Below the pieces are notes generated by a model. That model had not been told where the DNA came from, did not search any database, and saw only the letters and a program-made list of their open reading frames with translations. A program made the translations under genes and the position numbers. Shown one piece after another: positions 1,389 through 35,700 of a DNA stretch of 64,000 nt. Origin of the DNA: Octopus sinensis (taxonomy: Eukaryota); NCBI RefSeq assembly GCF_006345805.1, contig NC_043011.1, forward strand, positions 25,060,464 through 25,124,463. The letters run 5' to 3'. The stretch's first letter is position 1. Each line of letters begins with the position of its first letter.

Positions 1389-1607
1389 CTGTTATTAAAT
1401 TTTATGTACATGTATGTGAGGTTAGAGTGATTCTCCATCAAGACAAATGTGCACCAGTGTTTCAACATGTTGTTCAATGCAGTCATAGCTTTATAACAGT
1501 GTACAGACTGGAAGTAGCCGTTGGAATTTGGAGTGTGCAGGTACTTTTTCAGAGGAGTATCATGCCGCAATATGATACCGATTCGATGTGTGTGCATCCA
1601 TTTTTGC
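1389..1607 (-). CDS. SZT2: SZT2 exon 15 (QKWMHTHRIGIILRHDTPLKKYLHTPNSNG...)
   Basis: ttcaag acceptor, AG|GTAAGT donor, 219 nt. Confidence 0.93.
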
Positions 1608-2177
1608 CTTGAAAAGAAAGAGATAAAACAATAAAATAATTATTCAGACATTTATCTTTTATGTCTCTAGACTTAACTGCCTATCATCATCATCATTATC
1701 ATTTCTATATCTGCTTTTTCCATGCTGGTATGTGCTGGACAAGACTTCTCAAGATTGAATTCTATGGTTAGATGTTCTTCCAACTGACAACTCTTGCTTG
1801 TTTTCAAGTAAGGTACCTTAGTGCATTCACACATCAAACTACAGAGCAAGATGTTCTGTTTATGAGGAACTTAACCCTTTAGCATTCAGATTACTCTGTC
1901 AAATATAATGCTTTTTTATTCACTTTGTTTTGAATTAATTGTGTATTATCTTGTAGCTTTAGGATTTCAATTATGAGATTGTTTACTTTAAGAATGACAT
2001 TATAGGGTAGGTGGGAGAGGCTGAATCTGACCAGTTTAAATCTAAAACAGATAAAATATTTGGGGTGGATATGACTGGGTTGAATGACAACAGGTCACAT
2101 CATCATGATTTTAATGTCCACTCACATCAGTCAGAAAGATTTTTAAAAATCCACACTCCTATATATACATATGTATT

Positions 2178-2209
<32 letters not shown>

Positions 2210-5200: not shown

Positions 5201-8200
5201 TCAAAATCTATAAACAAAATAATTCAAAATGGAACATTTCCAACAAACTTTTGATAAATGTAAATGTAAAAAGCATAAAATAGTCTTTAAACTCACTTTT
5301 GTAAAGATTGCCAGTATTTTTTGACATGAGCAGTGCGGAATGGACTTTTGGAAGGGCGTTTGTCAGTACAAGTCATCTCATGAAGAAAATCATAGCTGCC
5401 TTCAATTATTATTTCTACACGAGTGTAACGCCTAAATTGGAAATAGAAAAAATATCATTTCCATATCAAAATACATATATAACAATACAAGTGGAAATGA
5501 TAATTCAAGTCATGAAATATTAAAAAAAAAATAGTACAATAGTTCTTGGTGAATAAAGCCTGTTATATGGTCTCCATTCCTAGTAGTTATTTCACTTCAC
5601 TGAATTTATGGTGTTAACTTTTAGCATGCTGTAGATGCATCATGTCACCATATGAGTTTTCTCCCCTCTCAATGCAACACAATGTGCCAGCTGCTACAGG
5701 GGAGAAAACTCGTACTGCATCATTATGTGCCTGAGCATGCTAAAGGTTAACAGCAAAGGCATGAATATCCAAGACTTATTTCTTCACTTCTTAGGTCAAT
5801 AACTCTAATCCTCTACAGAAATATACACATCATTTATTATACCAGTGCATGAGATAAATATTAATTTTATATCTTGAAAATAAAGATTATATTAAAGATA
5901 ATTTCTCTATTTTCAGTCCAACACACTCAGATTCAAACCATTGCTTTACTTTTCTAGTTCCATTATGAATTCTGGAATCTCTCTTCATGTATGATACTCT
6001 TTTACACTACTACACTACTTAGTAGCTGATTTATTCCAACTATCTTTCATTCTCCTCTCATATCACACACACACACACACACACACATGCTTGGCTAGGC
6101 ACAGTTGTGGCTGTTTGCTAAGAAGTTTGCTACCCAACCACATTGTACCAGGTTCAGTCACACTGCGTGGCACCTTGGACAAGTGTCTTCTACTATAGCC
6201 TCAGGCCAACCAAAGCCTTGTGAGTGAATTTGGTAGGCAGAAACTGAAAGAATCCTGGCATGTGTGTGTGTGTGTCTTTGTGTTTGTCACCCACCACTGC
6301 TTGACAACCAGTGTTGGTGTACTTAGGACCCCATAACTTAGCAGTTTGGCAAAAAAGACTGATAGAATAAGTACCAAGCTTACAAAAATAAAAAAATATA
6401 TGCATGTCATTTAGATCTCCCTTTAGTTAACCCATTCTCTCATCATGATATTTTAAATAATCATATATTCTCAACAGATTTCAAACATGTATAGTAGAAG
6501 ACACTTGCACAAGAAGCTATGCAGTGTGACTGAAAGAATCCCATTGTGTATATATATATATATATATACAAACACTTATATACCTGTGTGTATGTGTGTC
6601 TTTGTTTCAGGGTTCGATCTCCACCACTGCTTGACAACTGGTGTTGGTGCATTTATGTCCCCGTAACTTAGCAGTTTGGCAAAAAAGAGCAACAGAATAA
6701 GTATCAGGCTTAAAAATAAAAAGTACTGGGATTGCTTCATTTGACTACAAAATAAAAATTCTTCAAGGTGGTGTCCCAGCACGGCCACAGTCTAATGACT
6801 GAAACAAGTAAAAAAATAAAGACATTAGCTTACTTGTTGGGAGACAAAGGCCATGATGCTGTAGCAATGTATTCAATGCGAGCATATTCCCTCCATGGTA
6901 ACAAAAGACGAACTTCAATTTGGCTTTCACCTTAAGGAATCGGAGAACAAGAAAAATATGATATAAATAAAAATTCATAAATGAAAAATTCAAGCCATAT
7001 ATTTTTACACAAACACACACACGCATGCACAAAATAGACACTACATCTATCCATCCCTCTTCACTTACTATTCCTGGTAGAGTTGTTGGGGTAGAGTCCT
7101 TAAGCACATGGTGTTCTTTCAGAAGCAACCATCATTACAATTTCCAATTGGATTCTCAAACATGACTAAGATCATGGATATTATCCAGCCATCTCATTCT
7201 TCACCTACCCCTTGATCTCCACCAGTTGACTTGGCTTGAAGAATCAACCCATATATCATTAATGAAAGCCATATGTACATTTGTCAGTGTATATATTTAC
7301 ATGTGTTATGCAGCTCTGACAAAACCAAGATACCTGGTGCCTTGCTGTACTCACGAAGACCCATCCTCCACAGGAAGACCATATCCTTTGGTGAAGAGAA
7401 TTGGCCTGCAAGAGTTCTGTGCCAGTACCACATAAAAGAACTCATGGCAGTGCCACATTAAAAGCACCCAGCACACACTGTAAAGTGGCTGGCATTAGGA
7501 AGGGCATCCAAATATAGAAACCAAGCCAAATCAGACAGGAACCGGATGCAGCTCTCCAGCTTGCCAGCTCTGGTCAAACAGTCCAACCCATGCTGGCATG
7601 GAAAAACAGATGTTAAAGGAGGAGGAGGACAATTTTTCTAGTACTGATAGGTATTTACTTTATTAACAAAATAATGGCAAACAGGATTAATTTTTACAAA
7701 CCATTAACATAAAATAGAAAATCAGTAACCCCACATACCTTTAATTAGGTTCACCTCTTTGATTGTATAACCTTCTCGCAACCGTAATGACAGCACTCCA
7801 GATATAGTGGTTTGGAGATTGACCTCTTTGTGCTTTTTCCTTACCATTGGTGCAACATTGATTTCTTGATTCGTAACTGGATGGGTCAAAAGCCTACAAA
7901 CAAGCAAAGCAAAGAATCAGTAATGTAAAATTACAAACAGTCTGAGGGATTTGCTTATCAGCTGGTTTCTATTCTTATCAAATTCCTTATGCCATACAAG
8001 TTTCCATTAAGTGAAGAATTTGATGATATCTTTTATGATACAACATACCTAATTTAAGAATTGCATATTCCATCCATTTTTTTGTAAGAATTTCATTGAT
8101 TAACCCTTTAGCATTCAGATTACTCTGTTAAATGTAATGCTTATCTATTCACATTCTTTTGAATTAATCATGAATTATCTCATAGCTTTGAGATTTCAAT

Positions 8201-11200
8201 AATATAATTGTTTATAATTTAAATGATATTGTCGGGTAGGTGTGAGAGGCCAGATCTGTCCACTCTCTGGACGATATACACTTTACTCCATTTACAATTA
8301 CTGCTTACTGATAGATGCAAGCATGGCTTCAGGTTCAATCACACTGTGTGGCACACTGGGCTGACCAAAAAAGAAAATGCTAAATCTCCCTGTGAACTGC
8401 GTTAAGGATGCATGTGTCTGTAGACTGCTCAGTCCCTTGCATGTTCATTTCACAAGCAAGCTGTTCTGTTGATTACATCAACTGGGACACTTGTCACTGT
8501 AAACAACAGGGAGTCAGGTTGCTTTTTTCACAGCAAACATCCTGATTTGTGCTAAATACTTGCTTTTTACATGTTCAAGCTATAGTCCATCTGTCTTTAT
8601 ATTTGCTTTCCTTTGTTCTGCCTTACGAATAACCATTGTCTTTATCTCTTTACTTCTGTGCCGGTGGCACGTAAAAAGCACCAACCCATCGTGGCCACTG
8701 CCAGCCTCCCCTGGCACGTAAAAAGCACCCACTACACTCATGGAGTGGTTGGCGTCAGGAAGGGCATCCAGCTGTAGAAATGCTGCCAGATCAGACTGGG
8801 GCCTGGTGCAGCCTCCTGGCTTCCCAGACCCTGGTTGAACCGTCCAACCCATGCTAGCACGGAAAACGGACGTTAAACGATGATGATGATGATTTTCTCA
8901 TCATTGTAACTGACAGAGTGACAGTTATTCGTTCAATTATTCAAATAACTGAATCCTCATTGTCAAACGATGAAGATACACACACACACAGAGGGAGAGG
9001 GGGAGAGAGAGATTTTAAAAAGTAATGATTTGTGAAATAGTGCAAAAACTGTAAGCATATTTCGATGTTTAGTAAATCAATATGTCAGTGTGAAGAATAT
9101 GAAATATTTGTACCTGCCAACCCAAGAAGGCCGCCCTGATGTATGATCTTGTCTGCAATTCAAACCAGTATCTGGAACTTCAAATCCTGTTAAACCTTTC
9201 TGAAAGCTCCACAGGAAAAATGCTTTGTGGTAAACATTCAATTCATTTCCAGAGTTTTTCTAAAGGTAAATAAAAAAATTAATTTATATAAGAATCATTT
9301 ATGTACATCAGAAACATGTAACAACTAAATAATGAAATCTGACCAAACTCTTGAAGTCAAATCAATAACTTTTTATGCCATTAAATATGTATTTGATGGT
9401 ATATATGACACACAAACTCTTACTCCAGAAAATTGCATAAATGTAAGAATTTTCAAATCTGTCCAACCCATACCAATAGTTTGTTTGTTTTTTTGTTTTT
9501 TCTTTGAAAAAAATGGGGAAAAATAAATGAAAGGGAGTAATGAATTTTAACATTATATATTAAACTAGCAGTATCGCCCAGCGTTGCTCGAGTTTGTAAC
9601 TATATAAGCATTTTTAGAGAGTTATAGCCAAAAAATAGCAAACAAATGCATTAAAAATGGAAAAAAAATTATGGTAAATTTTTTTTTAAATCGTTGACTC
9701 ATCGTAGACATTTTTAGAGAGTTACTTCCCTTATATAATAGCGAAAAAAATGCATTAAAATGGAAAAAAATGATGGTAAATTATTTTTTAAATCTTAGAC
9801 TCATCGTAGACACGCGCTAATACCAAGAAGGGCTCGATATGAATCACGACTATAAGATACCCGGTTTTGGTTAAACTGCACCGCAAAATGTGGGAGTAGT
9901 TAGGAATCTAAATCGTAGGAGAGACACACAACCTCACTTTTATATATAAAGATATTTGACCGTGATCTAACAAACTTATGACCAAAAGAAATTCAGCTGT
10001 GACCATTACATCTTGTATTCAGACATAAATGAACCTAAAACTACATCAGACAGTAGGGTGTAATTTGAGAGAAATTTGGCTGCTATTCCTAACAGACCGA
10101 GCAACCACATCAAGATTACTTCATACTCATGAGAATTTTAGTCACTGATAAAGAAGGAAGAGGTCAAGATATTAAGATAACTTACAACACTAGGTGACAC
10201 TGCAAAATAACCTCCAAATGTGGCAGTAGCAATAAATTTCATCAGCTCTGTATGTGGAACCCGTCCAAAGGACAAGTTACTGTGGTGACTGCATCCAATG
10301 TGCAAAAATGAACATGCGATGGTACTGTTACGGAGCTGTGCAACAAGAGCTTCAAACATACTGGCATCTGGAAGGCCAACCATTCCATCAGTGACAACTG
10401 CAATACCTAAAAGAAAAAGAAAGCCATCATGGAAAATTAAATTATGAGGCTTCTTATCAACATTTAAGTACTGTTTATTTTTCTAAGCCTGGAATAAACC
10501 TAACATCAAGCTATACTTGTATATTCATTTTTGGTTAAAACAAAAATTATCTAAAAACAACAAAAATATTTAAGTAAAAGCTTAAAAATAAAACATATAA
10601 CAATAATGGTATCATCTCTGCGCGACTAACAATTTGTCATCATCATCGTCGTCATTTAACATTCACGTTCCTTGTTGGTATGGCCTGGATGGTATTACAG
10701 AATCTGACTAGCTTGAGAGCAAAGTTGGTCTCCAATGTCTGCTTTGGCATGGTTTATACAACTGGATGCCCTTCCTAACACCAACCACTTTATAGTGTGT
10801 ACTGGGTGCTTTTTTTTTTATGGCACCAGCACTAATGAGGTCCTTCACTCAGTAGGGGTACAGTAAAGAGGGAGGTGGCTTTGGTACCAGCTATTCAAGA
10901 AACTAAAGTGGGAACGAGGAGACAGAAACAGGTGTTTTGCAGTGAAGGAGATATATGAGGATGACGATGAGAAACAATAGTAGAGATGAGATGAATATAA
11001 ATAAGCTAAATTTCATATTAGCCAAATTAATTAACCTAACAATATTTAACAATATACTTTTATCTCTCACAAAAATAACATAAAATGATACATTAAATAC
11101 ATAAATATAAAATTAACTATGTGTAAAAACGTTGTTGCTAAATTCTTCAAGTCCTTTACTTGACATGAGTAATCTATAGTGTCTTTGAAGACACCATCAT

Positions 11201-14200
11201 CATTCTAACATCCGTTTTCCATGTTGATATGGGTTGACAGGATTCGACGAACTAAAGGATTGCACCAAGATCAAATGTTTGCTTTGATATGGTTTCTATA
11301 GCTGGATGCCCTTCCTAATACCAACCACTTATTTGTCTCTCTTTTTTTTTTTTTTGGCATCATGTGACTGTTGTAAACGAATGTCATTCATTTCCAATAT
11401 TTTGCGCAAACATGTTCAGCCATGGGGAATTATTACCTTGCATGCAAACAGGTGAGGGTCAGCAAAGAAAACCTATTTCTATAAACTCAGTCTGACCCAT
11501 GCAAGCATGGAAATGAGGACATTAAACAATGATGATGATGACAATAATGACAACATCAATAAAGAAGAGGAGAAGGATTTGATAGCTTCAAAATTACAAT
11601 GTATATAAGCAAAGAATGGTGATCTAGCAGTAAATTACATAATTTTGTTTTATTTCAGTTAATTCAGTTCTATAAAAACAAATGCAAATGTATAGTAAAC
11701 TCCTTCACAGTACCTGCTGATGCATTTTCTGGTAACAGCTGTAGAGCCAAAATACCAAACCTGAGAACATTAACAAAACCGTGTTCAGGTTTGGATATAA
11801 GTTCTTCAACTTTCTGCTCATCCAATTTTGATCTGCGGCTTCTTGTGTCAACAGACGGTATGTCATTCAAAGAGGCAACTTCACTAAGCTCATGCTATAC
11901 ATTAAAAGAAAAAGAAAAGTAGTCAATAATCATCATCATCATCATCGTTTAACATCTGTTTTCCATGCTGGATGGGTTGGACAGTTCGACTGGGGTCCGG
12001 GAAGCCAGGAGGCTGTGCCAGGCCCCAATCTGATCTGGCAGTATTTCTACAGCTGGATGCCCTTCCAAATAAAATAAAATAAAATAAAAACAAATAAAAA
12101 ATAAAGATGAATAAAATAAGCATCTCAAAGAACATTCTTCCATCAATTTTTGCAAATATCAAGCCCCTATATGGTCTACTGACCTACTAGAAATAGCAGT
12201 CCAATCTCCCTCAAATAAGATCCTATCATCTTTACAAATATAAAACATTGGAAATACATGTCTAGATATACTATGTCTGCAAAATAGGGGTGGGGGTCAT
12301 AATCCCAAATATCACAATCCCAAATGGCATAATCACAAATGGTGAAACTCCAGTTGTTTGATTAAGTGAATTACCAGGTTCATTGACTTAGCATGTGAGT
12401 GGCTGAGTATTCCACAGACATGTGTGCCCTTAATACAATTCTCAGATAAAATCACTATGACACTGTGTAACAAGGCTAGATTTATGAATTACAGATACAA
12501 TCCATTTGACAGGCTTCTACTTAGTGAATGTCAAACAAATTTCCTCAGAAAGTATGGGCTGATCTGAGGTTATAGAAAATAACACTTGCTCAAGATGCCA
12601 CACAGTGACATCAAACTTGGGACCTTGTGGTTATAAAATGAACTTCTTAACCATTTGGCCATACTGCACTGCAAGTTGGCAATATCATTCCTTCTGCCTT
12701 TTTGTATTCTGAGCTCAAATCCCATCAAGGTTCAAAGTGGTGAGTTGGTAGAACATTAGCATGTGGGACAAAATGCTTAGCAGCATTTCGCCTGACTTTA
12801 CATTCTGAGTTCAAATTCCACCAAAGTCGACTTTGCCTTTCATCCTTTTGGGCTCAATAAAATAAGTACCAGTCAAGTACTGTGGTCGATGTAATCAACT
12901 AGCCCCCTACCCTACAAATTCAGGGCTTAGTACCTACAGTAGAAAGGCTTATTTGCATAGGAATGAAAATGCTTAGCAGCATTTTATGTCTTTACATTCT
13001 GAGTTCAAATTCCTTGAAGGTCAACTTTGCCTTTCATCCCTTTGGAGTTGATAAAATACATAGCAATTATGTAGTGGGGTTGATGAAATCAACTAGTCCC
13101 CTTTGTGATAAATTCCAGGCCTTGTGCCTATAGTAGAAAGGATTGGATTGTTTGCAAAGGAATCAGAAATACTTGGTGGCATTTCTTCTAGCTTTATATT
13201 CTGAGTTAAAGTTCCACCTAAGTCAATTTTACTTTTCATTCTTTCAGAATCAATAAAACAAATACCAGTTGAGCAAAGGGAGTTGAAGTAATCAACTTCT
13301 ACCTCCTCTTGAAACTGCTACTATTGTGCAAAAAAAATCAGAAAGAATTAATTGCATAGAAATATGTTTCAGTCATTCAAAGGTACATTATTATATTGGT
13401 ATTTTATGTAACCAAAGTAATTCTAATAAAATGCTTCTATGTGATGTTATATCATACAATAATAGTTAAATACCTTGAACACTAAAACATGTTTATAGCC
13501 ATTTGATAAGTAACTTCTTTAAACAAATGTGAGTGAAGGCACATGTCCTAGTGGTTAGGGTGTAGCATTCACAATCTTATCATCATCATCATTGTTCGAC
13601 AGTGGTCGAGACAATGGAATTTACTATGTTACGCCAGACTTCACGGTCCATCATAGCATTACGGAGGTCCTGTTGCTGGATGCCTGTATCCCTGGAGATT
13701 ACATCAGGGTAGGAGAGTGTGCGCCCTCTGGTATTGCGAGTAGATGGCTTCCAGAGGAGAAGAGTAGAAATTACTTCTTTTTCAATCTTATGATCATGGT
13801 TTCAATTCCTGGACTAGCCAGTGTGTTGTGTTCTAAAGCAAATTACTTCCCTTCACGTTGCTCCAATCAACCCAGCTGTAGATGGTTGGAGAGTTAACCC
13901 TACAATGGATTGGCATCCCATTCAGGAGGGGTGATGTAATCTCAGTAATTTATATGCCATAGAAAATGGGTTAAACTCCAGCCTTATGAATCGTAGGGCT
14001 CATGAAAGATGGAAAACAATTTGTAAAACTTGTATAGAATTAACAATATATCTCTTCCACCCAAATAAATTCATTACATTAACCCTTTAATATTCAGATC
14101 ACTCTGTCAAATGTAATCCTTATTCATTCACACTGTTTTGAATTAATTATGCATTATCTCATACCTCCTAGATTTCAATGATGTAATTGTTTATTTTTAG

Positions 14201-14893
14201 AATGAGATTGTAGGTTAGGTGCGAGAGGCTGAATCTGGCCGCCAATTTAAACATAAAACCAGTAGAATATTTTGGTTCGAGATGGCTTGTTTAAATGTTA
14301 AAGGGTTAAGCAAAGATGAACATGAAAAAGTATTTAAAATGTTTTACACTCACAGAATTCATTTGAAGAGTTACTAATGATGCAAAATGTTTTGAAACAG
14401 CATTCTCAAACTCCTTGAGCATTCGATGTAATTCACCAAGAATGGTTTTTAAGTTTTTTCTTGTAACCAATACTCCTTGACATAAGACCTATAAATATTA
14501 CAAAAACAGCTAAAATTCAATATGAATAGTAAAACTGAGAGACACAATATTGAATTACATTAAAAAGAAATATAACATGAGAATTAACATTAATATTATG
14601 ATTGAAATAACTTAATTCATTTATGCAAATGAATTTGGTAAATTGTTATTTTCATTAAATTTCAACTTCAATCATTACCTGTAAACTTCAAAATAAATTG
14701 ATTTGTATCATTCTAAATGCGCAGGTGTGGCTGTATGGTAAGAACAATGCTTCCTAACCGCATGGTTCCAAGTTCAGTCCCACTGCATGGTACTTTGGGC
14801 AAGTGTCTTTTATTATGGCCTTGGGCAAACCAAGTGAATTTGATAGATGAAAACAGAAAGAAGCCCAGAGTGTGCATCTGTGTGTGTCTGTGT

Positions 14894-14948
<55 letters not shown>

Positions 14949-17900
14949 ACACCACTACTTGACAACTAGTGTTGGTGGATTTACATCCCTATTACTTAAA
15001 GGTCCAACAAAAGAGACCAATAGAATAAATACCAAGCTAAAAAAAAAAAGTACTGAGGTCAATTCATTAGATTAAAATTCTTAATGATAGTGTCCCAGCA
15101 TGGCCACAAACAGTCTAGTGACTGGAACAGATAAAAGAGGTTGCAGTCATTCAAACTGCAACTAATTTAATGTTATGAGTGTGAGATTACAGTACAGGAC
15201 AATGACCTATGGTCATGAATTCAAATCTTAGTAGTTTTTGTTGACTGCATCAGTTTGTCATCATCATCAGCATCAGCATCATTTAATGCTCATTTTCCAT
15301 ACTGGCATAGGTTGGATGGCTCGACAGGAGTTGGGCAGCTGAAGAGTTACCAGGGTTCAATGTCTGCTTTGGCATGGTTTTGATGGCTGGATTCCCTTCC
15401 TAATACCAACCACTTTACAGAGTGTGCTGGGTGCTTTTATGTGGTACCAGCATGAGTATTTTTATGTGACACTGGCATAGGTGCTTTTATGTGGTTGTCA
15501 ATAGGTTTCATGTTTTCTAGACAAGTGAATATATTGAAGTAGGAAAACAATACATCTTTTAAAAAAAAACAGTTACTCTCAAATATGAAAAAAAAAATCA
15601 ACTGTCTTTTCTCATTCGACAAAATGAAATATCAGTTAAATAAAATACAATGCCAAAAGATTTTTTGAATAAATATTTGAATACTTACGAAATTATTGCG
15701 ACATGCAATTAATGGTGTGTAAGCAACAACTGTCACATAAAGAGATGGAGTCAGAGCTAGATCTGAGCCAGGTGAACAAAACTGCAAGAAGAAAAAAGAT
15801 CCTATCTCAAGTTTTAATCCAAACAACTAAGATCTTTGGCAAAAAATAATTATAAATTAACTTCTTGTCTTTATAATCCTGTGTTTCTTGAAGCAAGTTC
15901 AGTGAAAAAAAATTCAGAGAGAGAGTGTGTGTGTGTGTATGTGTGTGCATGTGTGTGTGTGTTTTACATATAAAGTTGTCTTTAAGAAATAATTATTGAA
16001 ATCTACTTACAGGCTGTACTAAACCAGTAAGACAGTTCTTCAAAGAAGTGTAAACATCATCCCACAGTACTCGACCTGAACATAAATCCTAAAATAGATA
16101 AATGAAAAATAAATACCATTAATTTGTTCAATTCAGACAAATATTTTGAGGAGTTTCTAAGGAAAATATTTATGGCACAATACCATCTTTCGATAAGATA
16201 TACTTTAAATATCCTCCTCTGCCTCTTCATTATCATTTATTTCCCGAGACTGGAATGGCTTACAGGTGACTACTGTACACCATACCTATTTCTTTACTAC
16301 CCACAAGGGGCTAAACACAGAGAGGACAAACAAGGACAGACAAACGGATTAAGTCGATTATATCGACCCCAGTGCGTAACTGGTACTTATTTAATTGACC
16401 CTGAAAGAATGAAAGGCAAAGTCGACCTCGGTGGAATTTGAACACACACACACACACACGCCACATATTTTCTCTGCCATGGTCACTGATGGAGGCTCTG
16501 GGGTGTACTGAGATGACCACAATCAATACATTTTACTTCCAAGCACTGCTGTAAACAATGGAAGTGAGCGAGAACATTATAACTTAGTGTACATGCGCAA
16601 CAAGGTTCAAGGTCAATCTGTGCCAAGTGGCATAATCTAGTTCCATCACCATAGCAACACTCTCAGTACATTTTGCTCAGACCTCAAACAGAGATCATAG
16701 ATAGTGTAAAGTTACTATTCACTGAATCTGGGTCTAATTACTCTGCCATTTTTCTTATTTGCTCCTCTGTTAAAACCACACCTACACTACACATACCAAA
16801 GTTTTTCCATTGAGAACTCCTTCCTGTGTCCTCCATCTTAATTCTTGCACATTTCTCTACTATTCTACTACGTTAACTATTTCACTAGCCTTACTTTTTA
16901 TTATACTACAACCACAAATCCTTTATAATGTGGATTTCTGTGATGCTTCTTATTTTTGAGTACAAATGTGAAAATACTGAATTATCATCATCATCATCGT
17001 TTAATGTCCGCCTTCCATGCTAGCATGGGTTGGACGATTTTGACTTAGGGCTGGGAAACCAGACGGCCGCACCAGGCTCCAATATTGAACTGGCAGAGTT
17101 TCTACAGCTGGATGCCCTTCCTAACACCAACCACTCTGAGAGTGTAATGGGTTCTTTTACATGCCACCAGCACAAGTGCCATTTGCATGACACCAGTATC
17201 TGCCATGACTGCTATTTTGCTCAGCTTGATAGGTTTTCTTATCAAGCAAGACATAATGCCAAAGGTCTCGGTCATTGCCTCCGTGAGGCCCAACACTCAA
17301 AAGGTGCTTTTTATGTGCCAGGGCCAGGGCTGATATCCCCAAGTTGTGTACACAAATAATAACTACAAGTTTTTGATCCATATTCACTATTTATTGTACT
17401 CAGTTCTGGAAAGTACCCCAATACTGAAAACAAGTTAACTTGGTTCCTATGTCTCAAGTGCACATGCACAAATATGAGTGTACATAACTCTCACACAGTA
17501 AGGGCTAAAGGAATATCTATTCCTGGCTGTAACTTACTATGACTGCCAATATTTCTAGATATACCTACCTGTCTCCTGGCTTCCCTTCTAGCTATCTGAT
17601 ACAGTTCCCTGCTTCCCCCACTCTTCTAGGCCTGTTTCTTTGCTCTAATGGCCCGGTCTACAACCTCAGTCCACCAATACGTCACCCTAGGTCTGGATGG
17701 GACTTTGCACCAGCTGCAGATTTGGTCTGTGGCACTCAACAAGCTGTCCTGCAGGAATTTCCAGTTGCCCTCTATGTCACAAGTCTGTAGCTTCTCCTCC
17801 CTCTCATCAAATTTCTCAATTAGGACGTCCCTAGATCTCTGACCATGTGAGGTGTCCTTAAGCTTCCAATTCCTTCTTTACCAGATTGGTCTGCTTCTTG

Positions 17901-20900
17901 GTATCCTTTGGTCTGAAGTCTAAAGTCACTAATGACTAGTCTATGCTGGGGGATACATTCTTCAGGGTGGGTCTTTCATTCAGGTGAAAATGAAATCAAT
18001 CTGGCTAGCATAGTCACCTGATTGCTAAGTTATCAGGTGGCTGGCTGACTTCCTGAAGTTGATGTTGAGGATCAGTAGGTTATTTGCATCACTCCAGTAG
18101 CCTTGTTCCCTCTTTGTTTTGGGAACCAATTCAATGGCCCCTATGTACACCACAGAAGATACCAGGTTGCTGTCCAACATGCCCACTGATATACCCAGCC
18201 ACAAAGATGAGATCATTGCCACTCAACTTTTGTTCATTTGGTAGGCCCGCTTGTGGGGCATAGGCAGAGATAATTGTTGCTATACTACTCTGCAAGACTA
18301 GCCTGAGCTTAAGTACTCTATCACAAACTCTGACTACCTCTATGACCTTATCCACCCATTTCTCTGCAAGAAGTATGCCCACACCACCTACCCCTTCACT
18401 GTTACCTTCCTAGAAGATTTTATATCTATGTGTCTTGCCTGTGAGGAATCTGGTTGAAGGCACATTTGACTCCTCCACCTCTTGACAATTGGTGTTGGTT
18501 TGTTTACATCCCCTTAACTCCAAGGTTTGATAAAAGAGCTTGATAGAATAGGTACCAGATTTTAAAACTAAGCACTGGAATCGATTTGTTCAACTAAACC
18601 CTTCAAGGCAGTGCCCCAGCATGACCATAGTCCAATGACTAAAACAATAAAACAAGTAAAAGATAAAATATAAAATATAAAAAACAAATTTTACAATTGT
18701 TCTGAAACAGAAATGGTGAATGTGTTACACTTTCCTCCCAAGAATATACTTACACTGGTGCAGCGCATTAAATAATACTCACTTTTTCTAAATATCAGTG
18801 CATTTTGCAAGTCACACCTGAAACATAATTTACTGAAATGAAATAGCTAACAGAAAATTAAAACTACTTCAGGGACTTTTCTGAGTTTCTTCTACTCTAT
18901 GGTATACAAACCTTCATGTATCTTATTGCCATTTCAACAGCATTTCTAAATTTGATTTTAATTTTTTTTTTTAATATGAGGCAGCAAGCTAGCAGAAATG
19001 TTAGAACGTTGAGTGAAATGCTTAGCAGTATTTTGTCTGACTTTACATTCTTAGTTCAAATTCCATCAAGGTCGACTTTGCCTTTCATCCTTTCAGGGTC
19101 AATAAATTAAGTACCAGTTGCATACTGGGGTCAATCTAATCGACAGGCCCCATTCACCCAAAATTTTGGGCCTTGTGCCTAGAGTAGAAAAGAATATTTT
19201 TCTGATAGCCAAGTCTGGCAATGCTGGTTTCCTTTTCCAATGAAATTAATACGCAGTACCCCTTGCATAGTAAATAGATTTTCTAAAATAATCATTCAAA
19301 CATATTACTCAACACCGCCCCAATTTGGGGCTTCTATAATTTCAGCAATATAATGAAGAATGTTAAGGCGGCGAGCTGGCAGAGTCATTAGTATACCAGG
19401 TAAAATGCTTAGTGGCATTTTGTCTGTTTTTACATTCTGAGTTCAAATTCCACAGAGGTCAACTTTGCCTTTCATTCTCTCAATGTTGATAAAATAAGTA
19501 CCAGTTGAACACTAGGGTTGATGTAATTAATTTAATCCTTCCCCCAAAATTTGAAACCCTTATAATGAAGAATGTTCCTACAACACCAATTTATATTTAA
19601 TACTATGCTATACTTAATACAACATTATATTTAATACTTGATAATTGCAACATCACAATTAGAAAAATAAAAACGAAAAACTTACCAAAGAGGACACAGA
19701 CGGGCTTAGATCCAGGGCGAATGCAATTCTATACTGTGTGGACATGAAAATCACTTTGGTGCGTGTGGTAAGCTTGAAAGAATGTTCTTTGCCTGGCTGG
19801 AAGGTGACATAGCTTTTCTCTGGGATCACAGACAATACTATCAGTTCTTCTGATGATAAATCAGACTTGAAGTAAAAGAAAAAAATTGTTACACATTTTT
19901 TAAAATGACTAACATAAATATCAAACATTAATTTTTTTTTTTTTAAATTACATGAAAAAGTTCCATTATGAATATGAAAACCAACTTTTTAAAATACTAG
20001 AATAGATTGGAAAATTCAGACATTTACATATTTATTTACTTTTTGAGTCTAATGGAGGCAATGTGGCCGATGCTGATGTTGCATACCTGGCACTCGTGCT
20101 AGTGGCATGTAAAAAGCTCCTGTCATGTGTTGGGCCTCTAGGAGGCATCTGGCACCCATGCTGGTGGCACATAAAAAGCACCTGTTGAGTGTTGGGCCTC
20201 ATGGACGCAATGTGTCTAATGTCAATGTCATGTAACTTTCACCTGTGGCAGTAGCATGTAAAAAGCACCTTTTAAGCATTAGACCTCGCGAAAGCAATGA
20301 CATATGACTGAGACCTTTGACAACATGCCATGCTTGAGTAGAAGACCCATCAAATCAAGTGAAATCATAGTAATGGTAGATACTGGTGTCATGTAACTGG
20401 CACCTGTGCAGGTGGCACGTAAAAGTACCCATTACACTTTTGGAGCAGTTGGCACTAGTAAAAGCATCCAGCCATAGAAACCATGCCAAATCAGACTGGA
20501 GTCTGGTGCAGCCCCCTCAGCTTGCCAGCCCTGGTCAAACTGTCCGACCCATGCCAGCATGGACAATGGATGTTAAATGATGATGATGATAAGCTCCATT
20601 TAATCACTCCTACCTTTTCTTCTAAAATTGTGAGTAGTCAGTCATGTAACAAGAAATCTGTTCTACTCTAGCTCTTTCTCTCATACTTTTATCTATCTTT
20701 TGCCCCTTATTTCTAGAATAAAGTCTCCTCTCCCTCCCCCCACACACACCAGTTCATAATTTTGCAAACTGCATGATGGTGTCATTAGCGTGGGTGGCAT
20801 AAAAGAAACACCCAGCGCATGTTATAAAGTGGTTGGCATTATGAAGAGCATCCAGTCATAGAAACCATGCCAAAGCAGTCACTGGAACATGATGCAGTCC

Positions 20901-32223: not shown

Positions 32224-32511
32224 CACACACACTCACATGTGTGTGTGTGTGTATGATGTTGAATGAAAACATAGCATTTCATTAACGTGATCACAACATT
32301 CTAATTTAATTTCGTCTGCAGGACAAAACAGATAGCTATCATATTTATGACAGACGAATAAACACCAGAAAAGGCTTGTATCGGCATGGTGCAACCTTCT
32401 GCTGCGGAGGAATGTAACGAAATAAACAATTGTTATAAAATAAGGGAGAGAGGAGAAAAATGTTGTTACTTGATCTCCGTCAAAGCTTCTAGCTTCATCT
32501 GTTTCATCCAT
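1389..32511 (-). CDS. SZT2: SZT2 (KICSTOR scaffold subunit), 5' part: 15 coding exons, 2003 nt / about 667 codons; gene continues beyond the left edge
   Basis: Exons (minus strand, in order): 32470-32511, 22606-22734, 19686-19865, 16011-16088, 15689-15781, 14354-14488, 11714-11894, 10186-10406, 9114-9259, 7739-7893, 6834-6930, 5297-5431, 4039-4164, 2664-2729, 1389-1607. All introns are GT-AG and phases match. The peptide carries motifs I recognise from vertebrate SZT2: LLMKKEYRISRN, LDLSPS, GILALQLLP, ELMKFIA.ATFG, RLREGY, QTDQLL.HL.SF, HDTP..K.LHTP.SNG. Confidence 0.95.
2664..2729 (-). CDS. SZT2: SZT2 exon 14 (DPSLNELIKFWNPIASLDINIW)
   Basis: ttgcag acceptor, GTTAGT donor, 66 nt, phase 2-2. 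Confidence 0.88.
4039..4164 (-). CDS. SZT2: SZT2 exon 13 (LMQTDQLLVHLHSFSS...NGLPLLPAEYSLQ)
   Basis: tttcag acceptor, GTTAGT donor, 126 nt. Confidence 0.9.
4421..4686. repeat. Foldback element, arms about 110-125 bp (4421-4530 / 4562-4686), loop about 30 nt
   Basis: e.g. CCTGCATTATGAGATCTAG versus CTAGATCTCATAATGCAGG; GTAAATATTGTCTC versus GAGACAATATTTAC. Confidence 0.85.
5297..5431 (-). CDS. SZT2: SZT2 exon 12 (RYTRVEIIIEGSYDFLHE...KYWQSLQ)
   Basis: atttag acceptor, GTGAGT donor, 135 nt. Confidence 0.92.
5618..5746. mobile_element. 129-bp palindromic TTAA-flanked MITE
   Basis: TTAA|CTTTTAGCATGCT...AGCATGCTAAAGG|TTAA, with an internal inverted pair GAGTTTTCTCCCCT / AGGGGAGAAAACTC. Confidence 0.75.
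6834..6930 (-). CDS. SZT2: SZT2 exon 11 (GESQIEVRLLLPWREYARIEYIATASWPLSPN)
   Basis: AAG acceptor, GTAAGC donor, 97 nt. Confidence 0.92.
7739..7893 (-). CDS. SZT2: SZT2 exon 10 (LLTHPV...RKKHKE...RLREGYTIKEVNLIK)
   Basis: ttgtag acceptor, GTATGT donor, 155 nt. Confidence 0.93.
9114..9259 (-). CDS. SZT2: SZT2 exon 9 (KNSGNELNVYHKAFFLWSF...)
   Basis: ctttag acceptor, AG|GTACAA donor, 146 nt. Confidence 0.88.
9565..9952 (-). mobile_element. Non-autonomous Helitron, 388 bp
   Basis: On the minus strand it begins TCTTTATATATAAA and ends with a GC-rich imperfect hairpin (CTCGAGCAACGCTGGG) followed by CTAG. It lies between host A and T with no TSD. Internal 100-bp tandem duplication at 9609-9811. 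Confidence 0.8.
10186..10406 (-). CDS. SZT2: SZT2 exon 8 (GIAVVTDG...ELMKFIATATFGGYFAVSPSV)
   Basis: ttttag acceptor, GTAAGT donor, 221 nt. Confidence 0.93.
11714..11894 (-). CDS. SZT2: SZT2 exon 7 (HELSEV...GILALQLLPENASA)
   Basis: gtatag acceptor after a T-rich tract, G|GTACTG donor, 181 nt. Confidence 0.92.
13581..13782 (-). mobile_element. 3' end of a second RTE-type LINE family with 9-bp TSD, inserted in a tRNA-SINE head
   Basis: Minus strand reads LLLWKPSTRNTRGRTLSYPDVISRDTG...AMMDREVWR plus a (GAT)n tail. TSD CAATCTTAT at 13572-13580 and 13783-13791. Confidence 0.8.
14083..14305. mobile_element. piggyBac-like MITE (about 220 bp), complete copy
   Basis: TTAA|CCCTTTAATATT...AATGTTAAAGGG|TTAA. 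Further copies at about 1875-2085, 8104-8260, 40585-40779 and 62744-62959. Confidence 0.8.
14354..14488 (-). CDS. SZT2: SZT2 exon 6 (VLCQGVLV...LQMNS)
   Basis: ttatag acceptor, GTGAGT donor, 135 nt, open frame. Confidence 0.9.
14879..14945. repeat. (TG)n microsatellite; representative of many (TG/CA)n and (TA)n tracts, e.g. 2178-2257, 25112-25152, 26002-26033, 32179-32220, 45400-45512, 48172-48206
   Basis: Directly visible. Confidence 0.95.
15689..15781 (-). CDS. SZT2: SZT2 exon 5 (FCSPGSDLALTPSLYVTVVAYTPLIACRNNF)
   Basis: ttgcag acceptor, GTAAGT donor, 93 nt. Confidence 0.9.
16011..16088 (-). CDS. SZT2: SZT2 exon 4 (DLCSGRVLWDDVYTSLKNCLTGLVQP)
   Basis: ttttag acceptor, GTAAGT donor, 78 nt, phase 0-0. 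Confidence 0.9.
17560..18459 (-). mobile_element. RTE LINE fragment (APE endonuclease region)
   Basis: [27 protein letters not shown]...IISAYAPQAG. A same-strand 3' tail copy lies at about 16985-17330. Confidence 0.85.
18460..18824 (+). repeat. Local direct duplication, copy 1 (copy 2 at 26087-26428)
   Basis: SINE tail plus about 150 bp of non-SINE flank shared, including private variants CCCCTTAACTCCAAGGTTTG and TAAAACAATAAAACAAG. Confidence 0.9.
19686..19865 (-). CDS. SZT2: SZT2 exon 3 (SDLSSEEL...YRIAFALDLSPSVSSL)
   Basis: Pyrimidine tract with AAG acceptor, GTAAGT donor, 180 nt. Confidence 0.9.
22021..22403 (-). mobile_element. tRNA-derived SINE family A, well-preserved copy
   Basis: Head with A-box-like TGGCTGTGTGG and B-box-like GGTTCAGTCCC, central (TG)n, tail ...GACTGAAACAAGTAAA. 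Other copies at about 3511-3918(+), 6097-6400(+), 14718-15138(+), 28912-29307(-), 29917-30281(-), 55472-55826(-), 60991-61375(+). Confidence 0.85.
22606..22734 (-). CDS. SZT2: SZT2 exon 2 (SAPEAKEIYLLMKKEYRISRNIRATWYFNHLNTTMTFVPPVSL)
   Basis: tttcag acceptor, GTAAGT donor, 129 nt; conserved LLMKK.YRISRN motif. Confidence 0.93.
25153..26001 (-). mobile_element. Young RTE 3'-UTR/tail copy with internal 159-bp tandem array, embedded in a (TA)n tract
   Basis: CpG-rich; (CAT)n end; three repeat units starting at 25439, 25598 and 25757; (TA)n on both flanks. Confidence 0.85.
27620..27950 (-). mobile_element. Decayed RTE reverse-transcriptase fragment
   Basis: Reverse strand reads LAFIDLEKAFDRV at about 27789-27827. 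Confidence 0.7.
28421..28820. repeat. Foldback/MITE-like element with 121-bp inverted arms (28421-28541 / 28700-28820)
   Basis: Hand alignment gives 12 mismatches in 121 nt with no gaps; spacer 158 nt. Confidence 0.9.
32470..32511 (-). CDS. SZT2: SZT2 coding exon 1 (MDETDEARSFDGDQ), putative
   Basis: acaATGG Kozak context. The phase-0 donor CAA|GTAACA fits the phase-0 acceptor of exon 2. Short acidic N-terminus, poorly conserved, so less certain than the other exons. Confidence 0.65.
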
Positions 32512-32760
32512 TGTAAGCAAGTTTGTTTTTCTTTTTTAATTTTTTCTTCTATCTTACTGAATTTCGCTGGAGACACAAAACTGTGCCCAGGTAGTTTATA
32601 AATAATCCTGTTTAATATCTCAACCCATCGAATCGTCTGAGACGACATCCATTTTGTCAATCATGTGATGACAGTAACAACATCCGCTGAACTCTCCTCT
32701 CTTGCAACACACCGGAAGTAATCAAACTTATTAGAGATATTATTTACCCGACAGATAAAC
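32512..32760. promoter_or_regulatory. Bidirectional promoter and 5' UTRs shared by SZT2 and MED8, with ETS/GABP site ACCGGAAGT at 32711-32719
   Basis: 249 bp between divergent start codons; perfect ETS consensus; CpGs retained locally; no TE insertion in the interval. Confidence 0.8.
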
Positions 32761-32766
32761 ATGCAG
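32761..32766 (+). CDS. MED8: MED8 coding exon 1 (MQ)
   Basis: aacATGCAG|GTAATT; supplies the MQ that precedes REEKQLE. Confidence 0.85.
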
Positions 32767-35700
32767 GTAATTATTGCTCGCATTATTATTGTCTTTGTTT
32801 ATTATTTCAGATTCTTTAATAGTATATCTTATCATATATAAATATATATATTATTTCTCTCAGTTTTCTAACTCCAGTTGAATTATCTAAACATTCGTAA
32901 TACGTTTCATCCGATTCATCATTTTGCTTACATATGGATCCCATGAGAAGTTTCTGAAGCAGTTATGACTGTTATATTCAAAAGTCCTAAAAAAAAACGT
33001 TTGAAAAACCATTTTTTCAGTTCATATTAATAAACTTCCGTTGATCCGTTCCTGCAGTTCTCTATTATACTTGGTAAATTAAAAGGAAAATGCTATTAAA
33101 CTCTTTAGAGATAGTGTTTCGACTACTGCATCTTAGATGTGACTTACTATAAGGTTGTCCCAAAAGTTCGTAGAAAGTCTTGGAAAATAATGGTCTTTAT
33201 TTTGAGGAATAATTTTTGTTGTTTTTGTTAGTACTTGGCGAGTAAAAATTCAATTTTCGCAAGTGTTTACGAACTTTTGGGACAATCTAATATTTAACAA
33301 TGCTGCGTATAAATGTGTGACATAAACACACTGAAATTTAATACATTTTCAATACTAAAATTGAAGCTGCGATATCTGCTAAAGTTTAAATTAAAATAAA
33401 GCTCCGCTTTTGAATTGGAGTATATCGTTTGTAAATTGCATGATAAAACAAACATTTTTACTGAGTACAATTTATATTTATATATAAATAGATGTAAATA
33501 AAACGTAACCGAGATAGTTCATGCAAACCATGTAGCATTGTACATGTGGAAATTCGGATTTGTTAATCTTATTGTTAAATTATTTGTATTTGTTTTCTTT
33601 TCATGAAAATTAATTGTAAACAATAAAAATTAGAAATATTCGTTTTATCCTGTTAAAACTCGAAATGGTTTACTTTCGATATTTATTTCAACATTGAATA
33701 ATGACTTAGGCTAATTTTGTTTGTTTTCATTATTCCCGGAAACAAACTGGATTTTGTTTTGATACTTTAGTTCAAAATGTGTATTTTGCTCTTGTAGAAT
33801 TGTAAACTAACTTTATTTCGGCTTGAAATCTCGCTACATTTGTCAGCGGTCACTCCCAGTTATCAATTTACGAATTATCCCTTGCTTTCTAAAGCAATTT
33901 CCATCATATTCTCACATAATTTCTCTATTCCTAAAACTTTATCATATAAAGCGAAACAGGTAAACAATTGTACATTTACTTTATCGCAGTACACATAATA
34001 TTCACGAGGCTTGCTCTTGACGAAAACTTAATACAAAGAATTTCAGATGATATTCTTTAAAATGAAGCTACATGCCATTTACAGACAAACCTTAATAATC
34101 AATAACTGTCTGATTGAATATATATATATATACGTGGCTGTTTGCTTCTGAATCACACGATCCTCGGCTCAGTCCCTCTGCGTGGGACCTTGGGCAAGAG
34201 TCTTCTACTATAGCTCCGGGCCGATCAGAGCCTTGTGAGTAGATTTGGTGGGTGAAAACTGAAACCGGCCCGTCGTGTATGTGTGTCTCCTTCCCTTGAT
34301 TTCGCGTGATAGTTGTTTGCCAACGAGTGCCACAGTCATGCAATTGATGTCCTTCATTGCCTGTCTTCTGTGAAAACATGTTTGGTCATGGGGAAATATT
34401 GGGTTGTTCAGAAAGTTCGTGCAGATTTTTAAAGGAAAGAAAAAGGTCAATAAATATTTGCCATTACATTTTTAATCAACCAAATTTGAACCATTTTGTT
34501 GCACAATGCGTCTCCCTCTTCCCAGAATTGAGGTGATTTTATGGCAAAGAATTCATCAAGGTATCTTTTTACGTCATCTGAGGAATTGAAATTTTTACCA
34601 TTAAGACTATTCTGCAGAGACCTGAATAAGTGGAAATCCGAAGGAGCAATATCTGGTGAATATGGAGGGTTGGGTAACACATCCTAGCCGAGCTGCAGCA
34701 ATTTTTGTCTGCTTCCCAAAGAAACGTGTGGTCTTGCATTATCATGTTGGAAAACAACACCCTTCCTGTTGGCCAATTCTGGACATTTCTCTTGAACTCG
34801 TCCAGTTGTGTGCAGTATTTGTCAGAATTAATAGTCTGGTTACTTGGGAGAATCTCATAGTACAGAATTCCTTTCCAATCCTACCAGACACAAATCAAGA
34901 CTTTTTTAGGGTAAAGACCCGCTTTTGGGGTGGCTAAAGGTGGCTCATGTCGCTTACTCCAGGATCGCTTTCTCCGAACATTTCGGTAGATAATCCATTT
35001 CTCATCACTTGTCACACTTTGCTTTAAAAAAGGCGCATTTTCATTCAGTTTATAAAGCGAATCACAGATGGAAATGTGATCCAAAAGGTTCTTCTCACTC
35101 AACTCATGTGTTACCTAAACATCGTAGTGATTTGTGTACCCAAGTTTTACCAGGTGCTCATGAATGATGGATTTTGATAGGTTGAGGCTTTCTGCCAATT
35201 CTCGGGCTGTGCAATGTGTGTTATTCTCAATTAATGACTTAATTTGGTCATCATCTGTAGAGGATGGTCTGCCTGATTGCTCTTTATCAATAAGGCTACA
35301 ATCTCCAGCTCGGAACCTTGTGAACCACTTCCATGCAGTTCTTTCGGATAAAGAAACTTCACTGTAAACTGCGCATATTTCTTTGGTTGCTTGTGAGACA
35401 TTTTTTTTCCCTTTACAGAAATAGAAAAGCATCAAGCGCTGAAAATGAACTTTCTTATCTTTCATTTTAAAGGGTTACAGAATTAACACAGGTTATAGGA
35501 ACATAAACTTTCTTCCACGAAAAGATAGCTTAAACTGTGCTCTAAATGGAGGTGTAGTCAAATCCTATTTTATGGACTCAACCTTGTTCTAAAATAAGTC
35601 AAAAGGTAAGCTACAATAAATCGGCACGAACTTTCCAGACAACCCAATATTAGAAATATTACCTTACATAGGGTTGGCGACAGAAAGGGCATCCAGTCAT

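What the first reader, a model, noticed from the sequence alone, without database searches (positions are those of the whole stretch)
32470..32766. SZT2 and MED8 head-to-head on a 249-bp bidirectional promoter, the same pairing as in mammals
Seen: divergent ATGs at 32511(-) and 32761(+) with a perfect ETS site (ACCGGAAGT, 32711) between them, and no TE in the gap even though the flanking introns are saturated with TEs. Established: human SZT2 and MED8 are divergent neighbours on 1p34, and GABP/ETS sites are enriched at bidirectional promoters. Inference: if this is a cephalopod, the pair has survived since the bilaterian ancestor in a lineage known for scrambled synteny, which suggests constrained co-regulation of an mTORC1 regulator (KICSTOR) and a Mediator head subunit.
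Basis: partly seen in the sequence, partly recalled or inferred. Interest (0 to 1): 0.75.

Follow-up and report, generated by a model that had tools for sequence, protein, structure and literature searches.

The report
Ancient back-to-back SZT2-MED8 gene pair
In this octopus two unrelated housekeeping genes, SZT2 and MED8, start back to back only 249 bases apart, as in mammals, with a third gene (CARM1) beyond; the layout is likely inherited from the first bilaterian animals and probably persists because the two genes share one tiny start region, a well-known kind of arrangement.

Summary
Real, old, but of an ordinary kind. SZT2 (ATG 32511, -) and MED8 (ATG 32761, +) are divergent, and 5 of 5 spliced contig sets confirm both first introns. 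The 249 bp is ATG-to-ATG. One RNA-type contig crosses all of it in every run, so it is probably mostly 5' UTR, with starts that abut or overlap. The ETS 9-mer is real (chance about 0.001 per gap) and recurs in the 154-bp gap of a non-cephalopod lophotrochozoan contig (L032) with the same head-to-head layout. A published supplement lists SZT2-MED8(-CARM1) neighbours in a brachiopod, a centipede and two hemichordates, and I found CARM1 about 42 kb past MED8 here. Bilaterian ancestry is therefore well supported. The "survived scrambling" surprise is not: squid keeps 275 ancient microsyntenies versus 216 in scallop. The pair is absent from 11 metagenome loci (mostly arthropod-like) with enough flank and probably broken in three molluscs. 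Nothing links KICSTOR and Mediator functionally. It is best read as a shared-promoter housekeeping pair that is hard to break. No earlier scan note mentions MED8.

The parts
32470..32511 (-). SZT2 coding exon 1 (14 codons, phase-0 donor at 32469)
   Evidence: Matches the N-terminus of P0125; spliced to 22734 in 5 of 5 spliced contig sets
22606..22734 (-). SZT2 coding exon 2
   Evidence: Human SZT2 residues 11-47, E 1.2e-7; loose-end match; boundaries read
1391..19916 (-). SZT2 coding exons 3-15 (to residue 667 of 3826; the gene runs off the window's left end); left and right limits approximate
   Evidence: tblastn of P0125 on the window
32512..32760 (.). 249-bp ATG-to-ATG gap: both 5' UTRs and, by inference, both core promoters; wholly covered by one RNA-type contig
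   Evidence: single copy in G000
32711..32719 (+). ETS/GABP-type site ACCGGAAGT, 41 bp before the MED8 ATG
   Evidence: same 9-mer (reverse strand) about 29 bp before the MED8 ATG in L032; no listed substitution in it in run X20
32649..32655 (-). YY1-like word facing SZT2 (consensus recalled; post hoc, weak); a similar word has the same order and orientation in L032
32668..32721 (+). Upstream ATG in the MED8 frame giving a 17-codon ORF that stops at the ETS site; a uORF only if MED8 starts upstream of it
   Evidence: its first 10 residues match 7 of 10 of the N-terminal extension of Argonauta MED8 P0002
31001..34000 (.). CpG-retaining zone (observed/expected 0.88-1.24 per kb versus 0.33 for the window) centred on the pair; inferred unmethylated promoter region
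   Evidence: PMC9476566 passages on octopus gene-body methylation
32761..32766 (+). MED8 coding exon 1 (two codons, then GT donor)
   Evidence: Spliced to 37010 in 5 of 5 spliced contig sets; same two-codon exon in L032
37010..60671 (+). MED8 coding exons 2-9: 37010-37128, 40240-40384, 42676-42816, 50477-50497, 56330-56383, about 58570-58654, about 59430-59595, about 60588-60671
   Evidence: one match in G000 for exon 3
33148..33294 (.). High-copy short repeat in MED8 intron 1, replaced by 43 other letters in run X20 (organism E)

Best explanation
SZT2 and MED8 start back to back 249 bp apart and likely share one compact promoter region, probably activated by an ETS/GABP-type factor, which was most likely inherited from the bilaterian ancestor as part of an SZT2-MED8-CARM1 block. 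Shown: gene identities, orientation, both first splices, full RNA-type cover of the gap, the ETS word, the CpG-rich zone, a GABP-alpha gene in the genome, CARM1 as the next recognisable gene, and the same head-to-head layout with the same ETS word in a second lophotrochozoan. Inferred: both start-site clusters lie inside the gap and abut or overlap; an ETS factor binds and helps open it both ways; the pair lasts because a breakpoint must fall in well under 250 bp and would strip one essential gene of its promoter. On this reading the pair need not reflect any joint function of KICSTOR and Mediator, and it can be broken when MED8 acquires another promoter partner.
For: Layout and splicing. CpG zone. 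ETS chance about 0.001 in octopus and 0.004 in L032, and the best local match between the two gaps is exactly that 9-mer. GABP-alpha domain over the Pfam cut-off in G000; GABP binds >80% of human divergent promoters (PMC2077898 abstract). Ancestry: Lingula g14276/77/78 = CARM1/MED8/SZT2 orthogroup; Ptychodera g11380-82/83/84 = SZT2 pieces/MED8/CARM1; Strigamia SMAR003519/003520 plus CARM1 on one scaffold; Saccoglossus on one scaffold (PMC8851819 supplement 4). CARM1 exons on the minus strand 42-56 kb past the MED8 stop, with 0 of 94 filtered open frames in the 40 kb next to the window hitting Pfam. Consecutive ids in O. vulgaris, Argonauta, Callorhinchus and 4 of 4 fishes. Human-mouse gap 73 bp. 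Partner swapping: NOG1, RPL5, USP9X/UBP24, an MJ1316/AKAP7-type gene and PIGA lie divergent upstream of MED8 in 7 of 11 loci with >=2 kb flank. Most ancient pairs are 5'-5' (54.8% human, 68.6% Lottia).
Against: No start site was mapped and no binding or reporter data exist, so 'shared promoter' is inferred. Orientation is shown only for octopus, L032 and (from papers) mammals; ids and the published table give adjacency, not strand. ETS sites are common at housekeeping promoters, so two occurrences need not be one ancestral site, and it is inverted between octopus and L032. A shared promoter does not explain the tail-to-tail link to CARM1 across about 42 kb. Over the whole gap, listed substitutions in X20 (10 in 249 bp) are not clearly fewer than in the flanking introns (13 in 210, 12 in 384; 10 of 46 rows hidden). 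The pair seems broken in scallop, mussel and abalone, so the constraint is not absolute.
Confidence: 0.7

Rival explanations
1. Selection for coordinated dosage: the pair is kept because nutrient-sensing KICSTOR and the Mediator head (and perhaps the co-activator CARM1) must be co-expressed.
For: Very long persistence. Similar expression pattern in mouse reported second-hand (PMC12732463). Ancient pairs are on average more co-expressed than controls. The third gene is also a transcriptional cofactor.
Against: No protein interaction in co-IP; GO similarity 0; other partners in arthropod-like loci; probable breaks in 3 of 3 informative mollusc assemblies. Co-expression follows from any shared promoter and does not show a need for it.
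Confidence: 0.15
2. Two separate, interleaved promoters with overlapping 5' UTRs: each gene's core promoter lies within the other's first exon, and sense-antisense overlap (interference or RNA duplex) both regulates and locks the pair, as for human INO80E-HIRIP3.
For: One contig crosses the whole gap in 5 of 5 spliced runs. In X4, X5 and X18 the adjoining intron DNA has no comparable contig, so DNA background is unlikely to have bridged it. With 31-letter words this implies about 30 nt or more of overlap in at least a minority of transcripts. Precedent: PMC11890862 abstract.
Against: Contigs carry no strand, start or local depth, so rare upstream starts would give the same picture. The human-mouse pair has a 73-bp intergenic gap. 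The runs' RNA status is the tool's guess (their splicing supports it).
Confidence: 0.2
3. Convergence or leftover chance linkage: the two genes lie on one ancestral chromosome and came together separately in vertebrates and cephalopods.
For: They share a chromosome-length record in 11 of 11 chromosome-scale non-cephalopod lophotrochozoan assemblies seen, and seem non-adjacent in three molluscs.
Against: Adjacent in a brachiopod, a centipede, two hemichordates and L032, and with the same third gene CARM1 in octopus, Lingula, Strigamia and Ptychodera. Repeated independent assembly of the same triplet is very unlikely.
Confidence: 0.03

Closest known systems
Mammalian SZT2-MED8 head-to-head pair (review PMC12732463, passages read; PMC2871058 supplement file 6 row 801, MED8-KIAA0467, 73 bp, human and mouse only; the original Frankel et al. 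2009 paper was not held)
   Same: Same two orthologues, divergent, a few hundred bases or less apart.
   Different: Seen here in a cephalopod and a second lophotrochozoan; RNA-type contigs cover the whole gap; CARM1 is the next gene (in human CARM1 lies on another chromosome: recalled, not checked).
Microsyntenic block 1328 of Robert et al. 2022 (PMC8851819, supplement 4 rows and method passages read; file cut when stored)
   Same: SZT2 orthogroup next to MED8, with CARM1 in Lingula, Strigamia and Ptychodera.
   Different: Unnamed in the table, no strand given, no cephalopod row among the rows I could see. Its 'Planulozoa novel' label rests on cnidarian rows that hold only split SZT2 models, no MED8.
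Conserved ancestral microsyntenic pairs (CAMPs) of Irimia et al. 2012, e.g. HSPE1-HSPD1 (PMC3514665, passages read; supplement not readable)
   Same: Non-paralogous neighbours kept 5'-5' with a very short gap across phyla.
   Different: HSPE1-HSPD1 encode partners of one complex; SZT2 and MED8 have no known joint function. Whether this pair is in their Table S1 could not be seen.
GABP-bound divergent promoters (Collins et al. 2007, PMC2077898, abstract read)
   Same: Consensus ETS site in a CpG-rich divergent gap; a GABP-alpha gene is present in the genome.
   Different: Binding and bidirectional activity were shown in human cells; nothing equivalent is shown in a mollusc here.

Membership tests
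SZT2, MED8 and CARM1 orthologues | Best matches are the named human proteins; full-length named records map exon by exon | tested here: met
Bidirectional-promoter gene pair | Two genes on opposite strands facing away from each other | tested here: met
Bidirectional-promoter gene pair | Start sites less than 1 kb apart | tested here: met
   Indirect: ATGs 249 bp apart, no further loose end pointing to an upstream non-coding exon, flanking introns essentially uncovered; starts themselves not mapped
Bidirectional-promoter gene pair | An untranscribed intergenic segment between the two starts | tested here: inconclusive
   One contig crosses the gap in 5 of 5 spliced runs, pointing to abutting or overlapping UTRs; contigs cannot show dominant starts
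Bidirectional-promoter gene pair | CpG-rich, unmethylated region | tested here: met
   CpG o/e 0.88-1.24 at 31-34 kb versus 0.33; methylation itself not measured
Bidirectional-promoter gene pair | Shared elements drive both directions | not testable with these tools
   Needs a dual reporter
GABP-bound divergent promoter | Consensus ETS site and a GABP-alpha gene | tested here: met
GABP-bound divergent promoter | GABP occupancy in vivo | not testable with these tools
   Needs ChIP or CUT&RUN
CAMP (ancient microsyntenic pair) | Non-paralogous neighbours in several distant lineages | tested here: met
   Octopods, L032, Lingula, Strigamia, Ptychodera, Saccoglossus, chimaera, 4 fishes, mammals
CAMP (ancient microsyntenic pair) | 5'-5' orientation kept in all lineages that keep the pair | tested here: inconclusive
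   Strand seen only in octopus and L032 and stated for mammals
CAMP (ancient microsyntenic pair) | Higher co-expression than matched neighbours | not testable with these tools
   Only contigs were served; depth cannot rank genes
Genomic regulatory block (developmental gene plus bystander) | A developmental regulator served by enhancers in a bystander's introns | tested here: not met
   None of the three genes is a developmental transcription factor (established knowledge); enhancers not tested

The most novel reading that the evidence does not exclude
The ETS site is a single promoter element kept at the MED8 side of this gap since the bilaterian ancestor, driving two overlapping 5' ends at once, and SZT2-MED8-CARM1 is a functionally constrained triplet that cephalopods kept while bivalves and abalones lost it. 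That would make it one of the oldest traceable promoter architectures, with natural break-up lineages as controls.
Probability: 0.2. Interest if true: 0.6.

Novelty: new member of a known kind. Interest (0 to 1): 0.3.

Why it matters
It moves a pair described as conserved 'in mammals' back to the protostome-deuterostome split and adds a third gene. It also offers a compact test of why ancient head-to-head pairs last: lineages that kept it (octopods, brachiopod, centipede, hemichordates, jawed vertebrates) can be compared with lineages that appear to have lost it (scallop, mussel, abalone, insect- and copepod-like loci). Practically, promoter or 5' variants and knock-outs of SZT2, an epilepsy gene, would be expected to touch MED8 too. 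It does not reveal a new mechanism.

Tried and rejected
Frankel et al. 2009 could not be read (DOI, PMID and PMC id not held); its 91-nt figure is recalled and not used. PMC6732301 holds no MED8 passage. The Irimia 2012 supplement was unreadable. No MED8/SZT2 in the held supplements of PMC9023564 or PMC13508932. RefSeq accession distance as an adjacency test was rejected: the fish control Genypterus (both genes on one 4-Mb scaffold) differs by 91-98, so Lineus (121), Haliotis (1292, 1658) and Mytilus gaps say nothing. GenBank gaps for Mactra (305), Pinctada (499) and Sinanodonta (1399) are uncalibrated and not counted. Dropped from the 'different scaffold' count: Ylistrum (SZT2 model lacks exon 1) and the M. 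edulis GenBank SZT2 piece (no N-terminus). The O. sinensis ids may come from the same genome as the window and are not counted as independent. Weak SZT2-like hits upstream of MED8 in L026-L028 (E 0.011) did not appear with a 52-sequence N-terminal profile or with full-length SZT2 queries. The Pfam CARM1 family search of G000 found nothing (a false negative, since CARM1 exons were then found directly). No CARM1 in the 40 metagenome loci. No run is on record as RNA, and no raw reads were served, so no start sites or strands. L032 could not be placed below 'non-cephalopod lophotrochozoan' (weak support). The 'Planulozoa' label was rejected as evidence for cnidarians (no MED8 in those rows). TE absence was rejected as evidence.
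Full report
Observation. The window has ATG at 32511 on the minus strand and ATG at 32761 on the plus strand, with 249 bp between them and ACCGGAAGT at 32711-32719. CCGGAAGT occurs once in 64 kb (0.24 expected); its chance in a given 249-bp stretch is about 0.0013. The plus-strand gene is MED8 (Pfam Med8; human MED8 E 2e-12). Nine exons from 32761 to 60671 encode P0001, a record named Octopus MED8, and exon 3 has one match in G000. The minus-strand gene is SZT2: its second exon matches human SZT2 residues 11-47, and the 3826-aa octopus record P0125 starts with the 14 codons at 32511-32470 and maps to 15 exons in the window.

RNA-type evidence. No run is on record as RNA, but 4 of 4 runs laid and run X18 (4 studies) each gave one contig from 32470 to 32766. 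Its loose ends equal SZT2 exon 2 (22705-22734) and MED8 exon 2 (37010-37039), so both first introns are real. Because a single contig crosses the whole gap, every 31-letter word of it was read. In X4, X5 and X18 the adjoining intron DNA has no comparable contig, which argues against DNA background; X1 and X2 show a depth-3 contig in SZT2 intron 1. I infer that the two 5' UTRs fill the gap and overlap by about 30 nt or more in at least some transcripts. Contigs show neither strand nor dominant starts, and a contig across two genes is not one transcript. The '249-bp promoter' is thus better called a 249-bp ATG-to-ATG gap.

Promoter signs. CpG observed/expected is 0.88-1.24 per kb at 31-34 kb against 0.33 for the window. 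This fits octopus genes methylated in the body but not at the start (PMC9476566 passages). G000 encodes a GABP-alpha domain over the Pfam cut-off, and GABP binds over 80% of human divergent promoters (PMC2077898 abstract). In a related organism (run X20) none of the listed substitutions falls in the ETS word or in 32567-32703, while nine fall in 32704-32759. Ten of 46 rows are hidden and the gap as a whole is not clearly better kept than the introns, so this footprint is weak. TE absence is not informative: about a third of 249-bp windows have no repeat hit, and a high-copy repeat sits 380 bp into MED8 intron 1.

Direct outgroup DNA. A MED8 scan of metagenome contigs gave 40 loci. One, L032, has SZT2 exons on the opposite strand (profile E 1e-13 and 7e-12), a likely SZT2 start at 1656 and the same two-codon MED8 first exon at 1811, a 154-bp gap. 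The SZT2 start there is tentative (weak donor; exon 2 also opens with ATG). The gap holds the same ETS 9-mer on the other strand about 29 bp before the MED8 ATG, and this is the best local match between the two gaps. L032 falls among lophotrochozoans outside the 100/100 cephalopod clade and could not be placed further (39 rows, no annelid reference). Eleven other loci have 2 kb or more upstream of MED8 and none holds SZT2. In 7 of them the nearest recognisable upstream gene is another divergent housekeeping gene: NOG1 (three loci), RPL5, USP9X/UBP24, an MJ1316/AKAP7-type gene, PIGA. Calling these loci insect- or copepod-like is my reading of their sequence, not a tool label. The other 28 loci are transcripts or have too little flank.

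Indirect outgroup evidence. Consecutive ids: O. vulgaris CAI9736157-58/159, Argonauta GAB1605815/816, Callorhinchus XP_007885267/268, and 4 of 4 fishes with both locus tags (Conger, Aldrovandia, Megalops, Umbra). A fish control showed that recent RefSeq numbers are not positional, so large gaps were not counted. Both intact N-termini lie on different scaffolds in 3 of 3 informative fragmented assemblies (Mizuhopecten, Mytilus coruscus, Haliotis rubra). The genes share a chromosome-length record in 11 of 11 chromosome-scale non-cephalopod lophotrochozoan assemblies seen. I read this as probable local break-up with the ancestral chromosome kept; assembly or annotation faults are not excluded.

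Literature. A review states the head-to-head layout for mammals, similar expression, and no co-IP interaction (PMC12732463 passages). A 64-species survey lists MED8-KIAA0467 at 73 bp in human and mouse only, GO similarity 0 (PMC2871058 supplement). The supplement of Robert et al. 2022 has block 1328, with consecutive gene ids for CARM1-MED8-SZT2 in Lingula and SZT2-MED8-CARM1 in Ptychodera, the three on one Strigamia scaffold, and SZT2 pieces with MED8 in Saccoglossus; its cnidarian, rotifer and planarian rows hold no MED8 (file cut). Searches for SZT2+MED8, SZT2+head-to-head, SZT2+synteny+invertebrate and CARM1+MED8+synteny returned no paper that, by title or abstract, describes the pair outside vertebrates; most subscription papers are not searched.

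A third gene. Prompted by that table I fetched 100 kb beyond the window and found CARM1 exons on the minus strand at about G000:C15:25,163,000-25,176,700 (human CARM1 E 1e-25 and 8e-21). The nearest is about 42 kb from the MED8 stop. None of 94 filtered open frames in the 40 kb next to the window hit Pfam, and no CpG-rich zone lies between, so CARM1 is likely the next gene, tail to tail. The octopus therefore keeps the whole triplet, which makes independent origin very unlikely.

Mechanism and rivals. Most likely (0.7) this is a shared, compact housekeeping promoter region with an ETS input, kept by entanglement: a very small breakpoint target between two essential genes. This is the commonest kind of ancient pair (54.8% of human and 68.6% of Lottia conserved pairs are 5'-5'; PMC3514665 passages). 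Its survival in a cephalopod is not exceptional: Euprymna keeps 275 metazoan microsyntenies, scallop 216 (PMC9023564 passage). Interleaved promoters with regulatory overlap (0.2) fit the contigs but need start mapping. Selection for joint KICSTOR-Mediator dosage (0.15) has no positive evidence and is weakened by partner swaps and losses. Convergence (0.03) is nearly excluded. The CARM1 link is not explained by a shared promoter and may be plain slow decay of an old block.

Verdict. New member of a known kind, interest 0.3.

Noticed in passing
window 50477-50497 and 56330-56383 (+): MED8 has two extra exons absent from bivalve and fish MED8: a 54-nt exon shared with Argonauta and another cephalopod-like record, and a 21-nt microexon. 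Octopus isoforms of 272 and 265 aa fit alternative splicing of the microexon.
   Followed up: partly
window 32668-32721 (+): An upstream ATG in the MED8 frame reads 17 codons and stops at the ETS site; in Argonauta the homologous ATG is annotated as an open 23-residue N-terminal extension of MED8.
   Followed up: partly
L045-L047 (G000:C15 about 25,163,000-25,176,700, -): CARM1 lies tail to tail with MED8; a CpG-rich zone 144-152 kb from the window start may be its promoter.
   Followed up: yes
window 33148-33294: Very high-copy short repeat in MED8 intron 1, absent at the same place in organism E, so probably a recent insertion.
   Followed up: no
window about 34400-35480 (-): Broken mariner-type transposase copy in MED8 intron 1 (Pfam Transposase_1 and HTH_48).
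   Followed up: no
window 25438-25891: 159-bp unit repeated 2.8 times at 95% identity in SZT2 intron 1, CpG-rich; probably a young repeat.
   Followed up: no
L022, L023, L025 upstream of MED8: Insect-like MED8 sits head to head with NOG1, and copepod-like loci pair it with RPL5, USP9X or PIGA: MED8 seems to favour divergent housekeeping partners.
   Followed up: partly
L032 1608-1617 and about 1775-1787 (+): A strong donor-like word and an acceptor-like word on the MED8 strand bracket the SZT2 first exon, which could mean an upstream non-coding MED8 exon overlapping SZT2 intron 1; may be chance.
   Followed up: no
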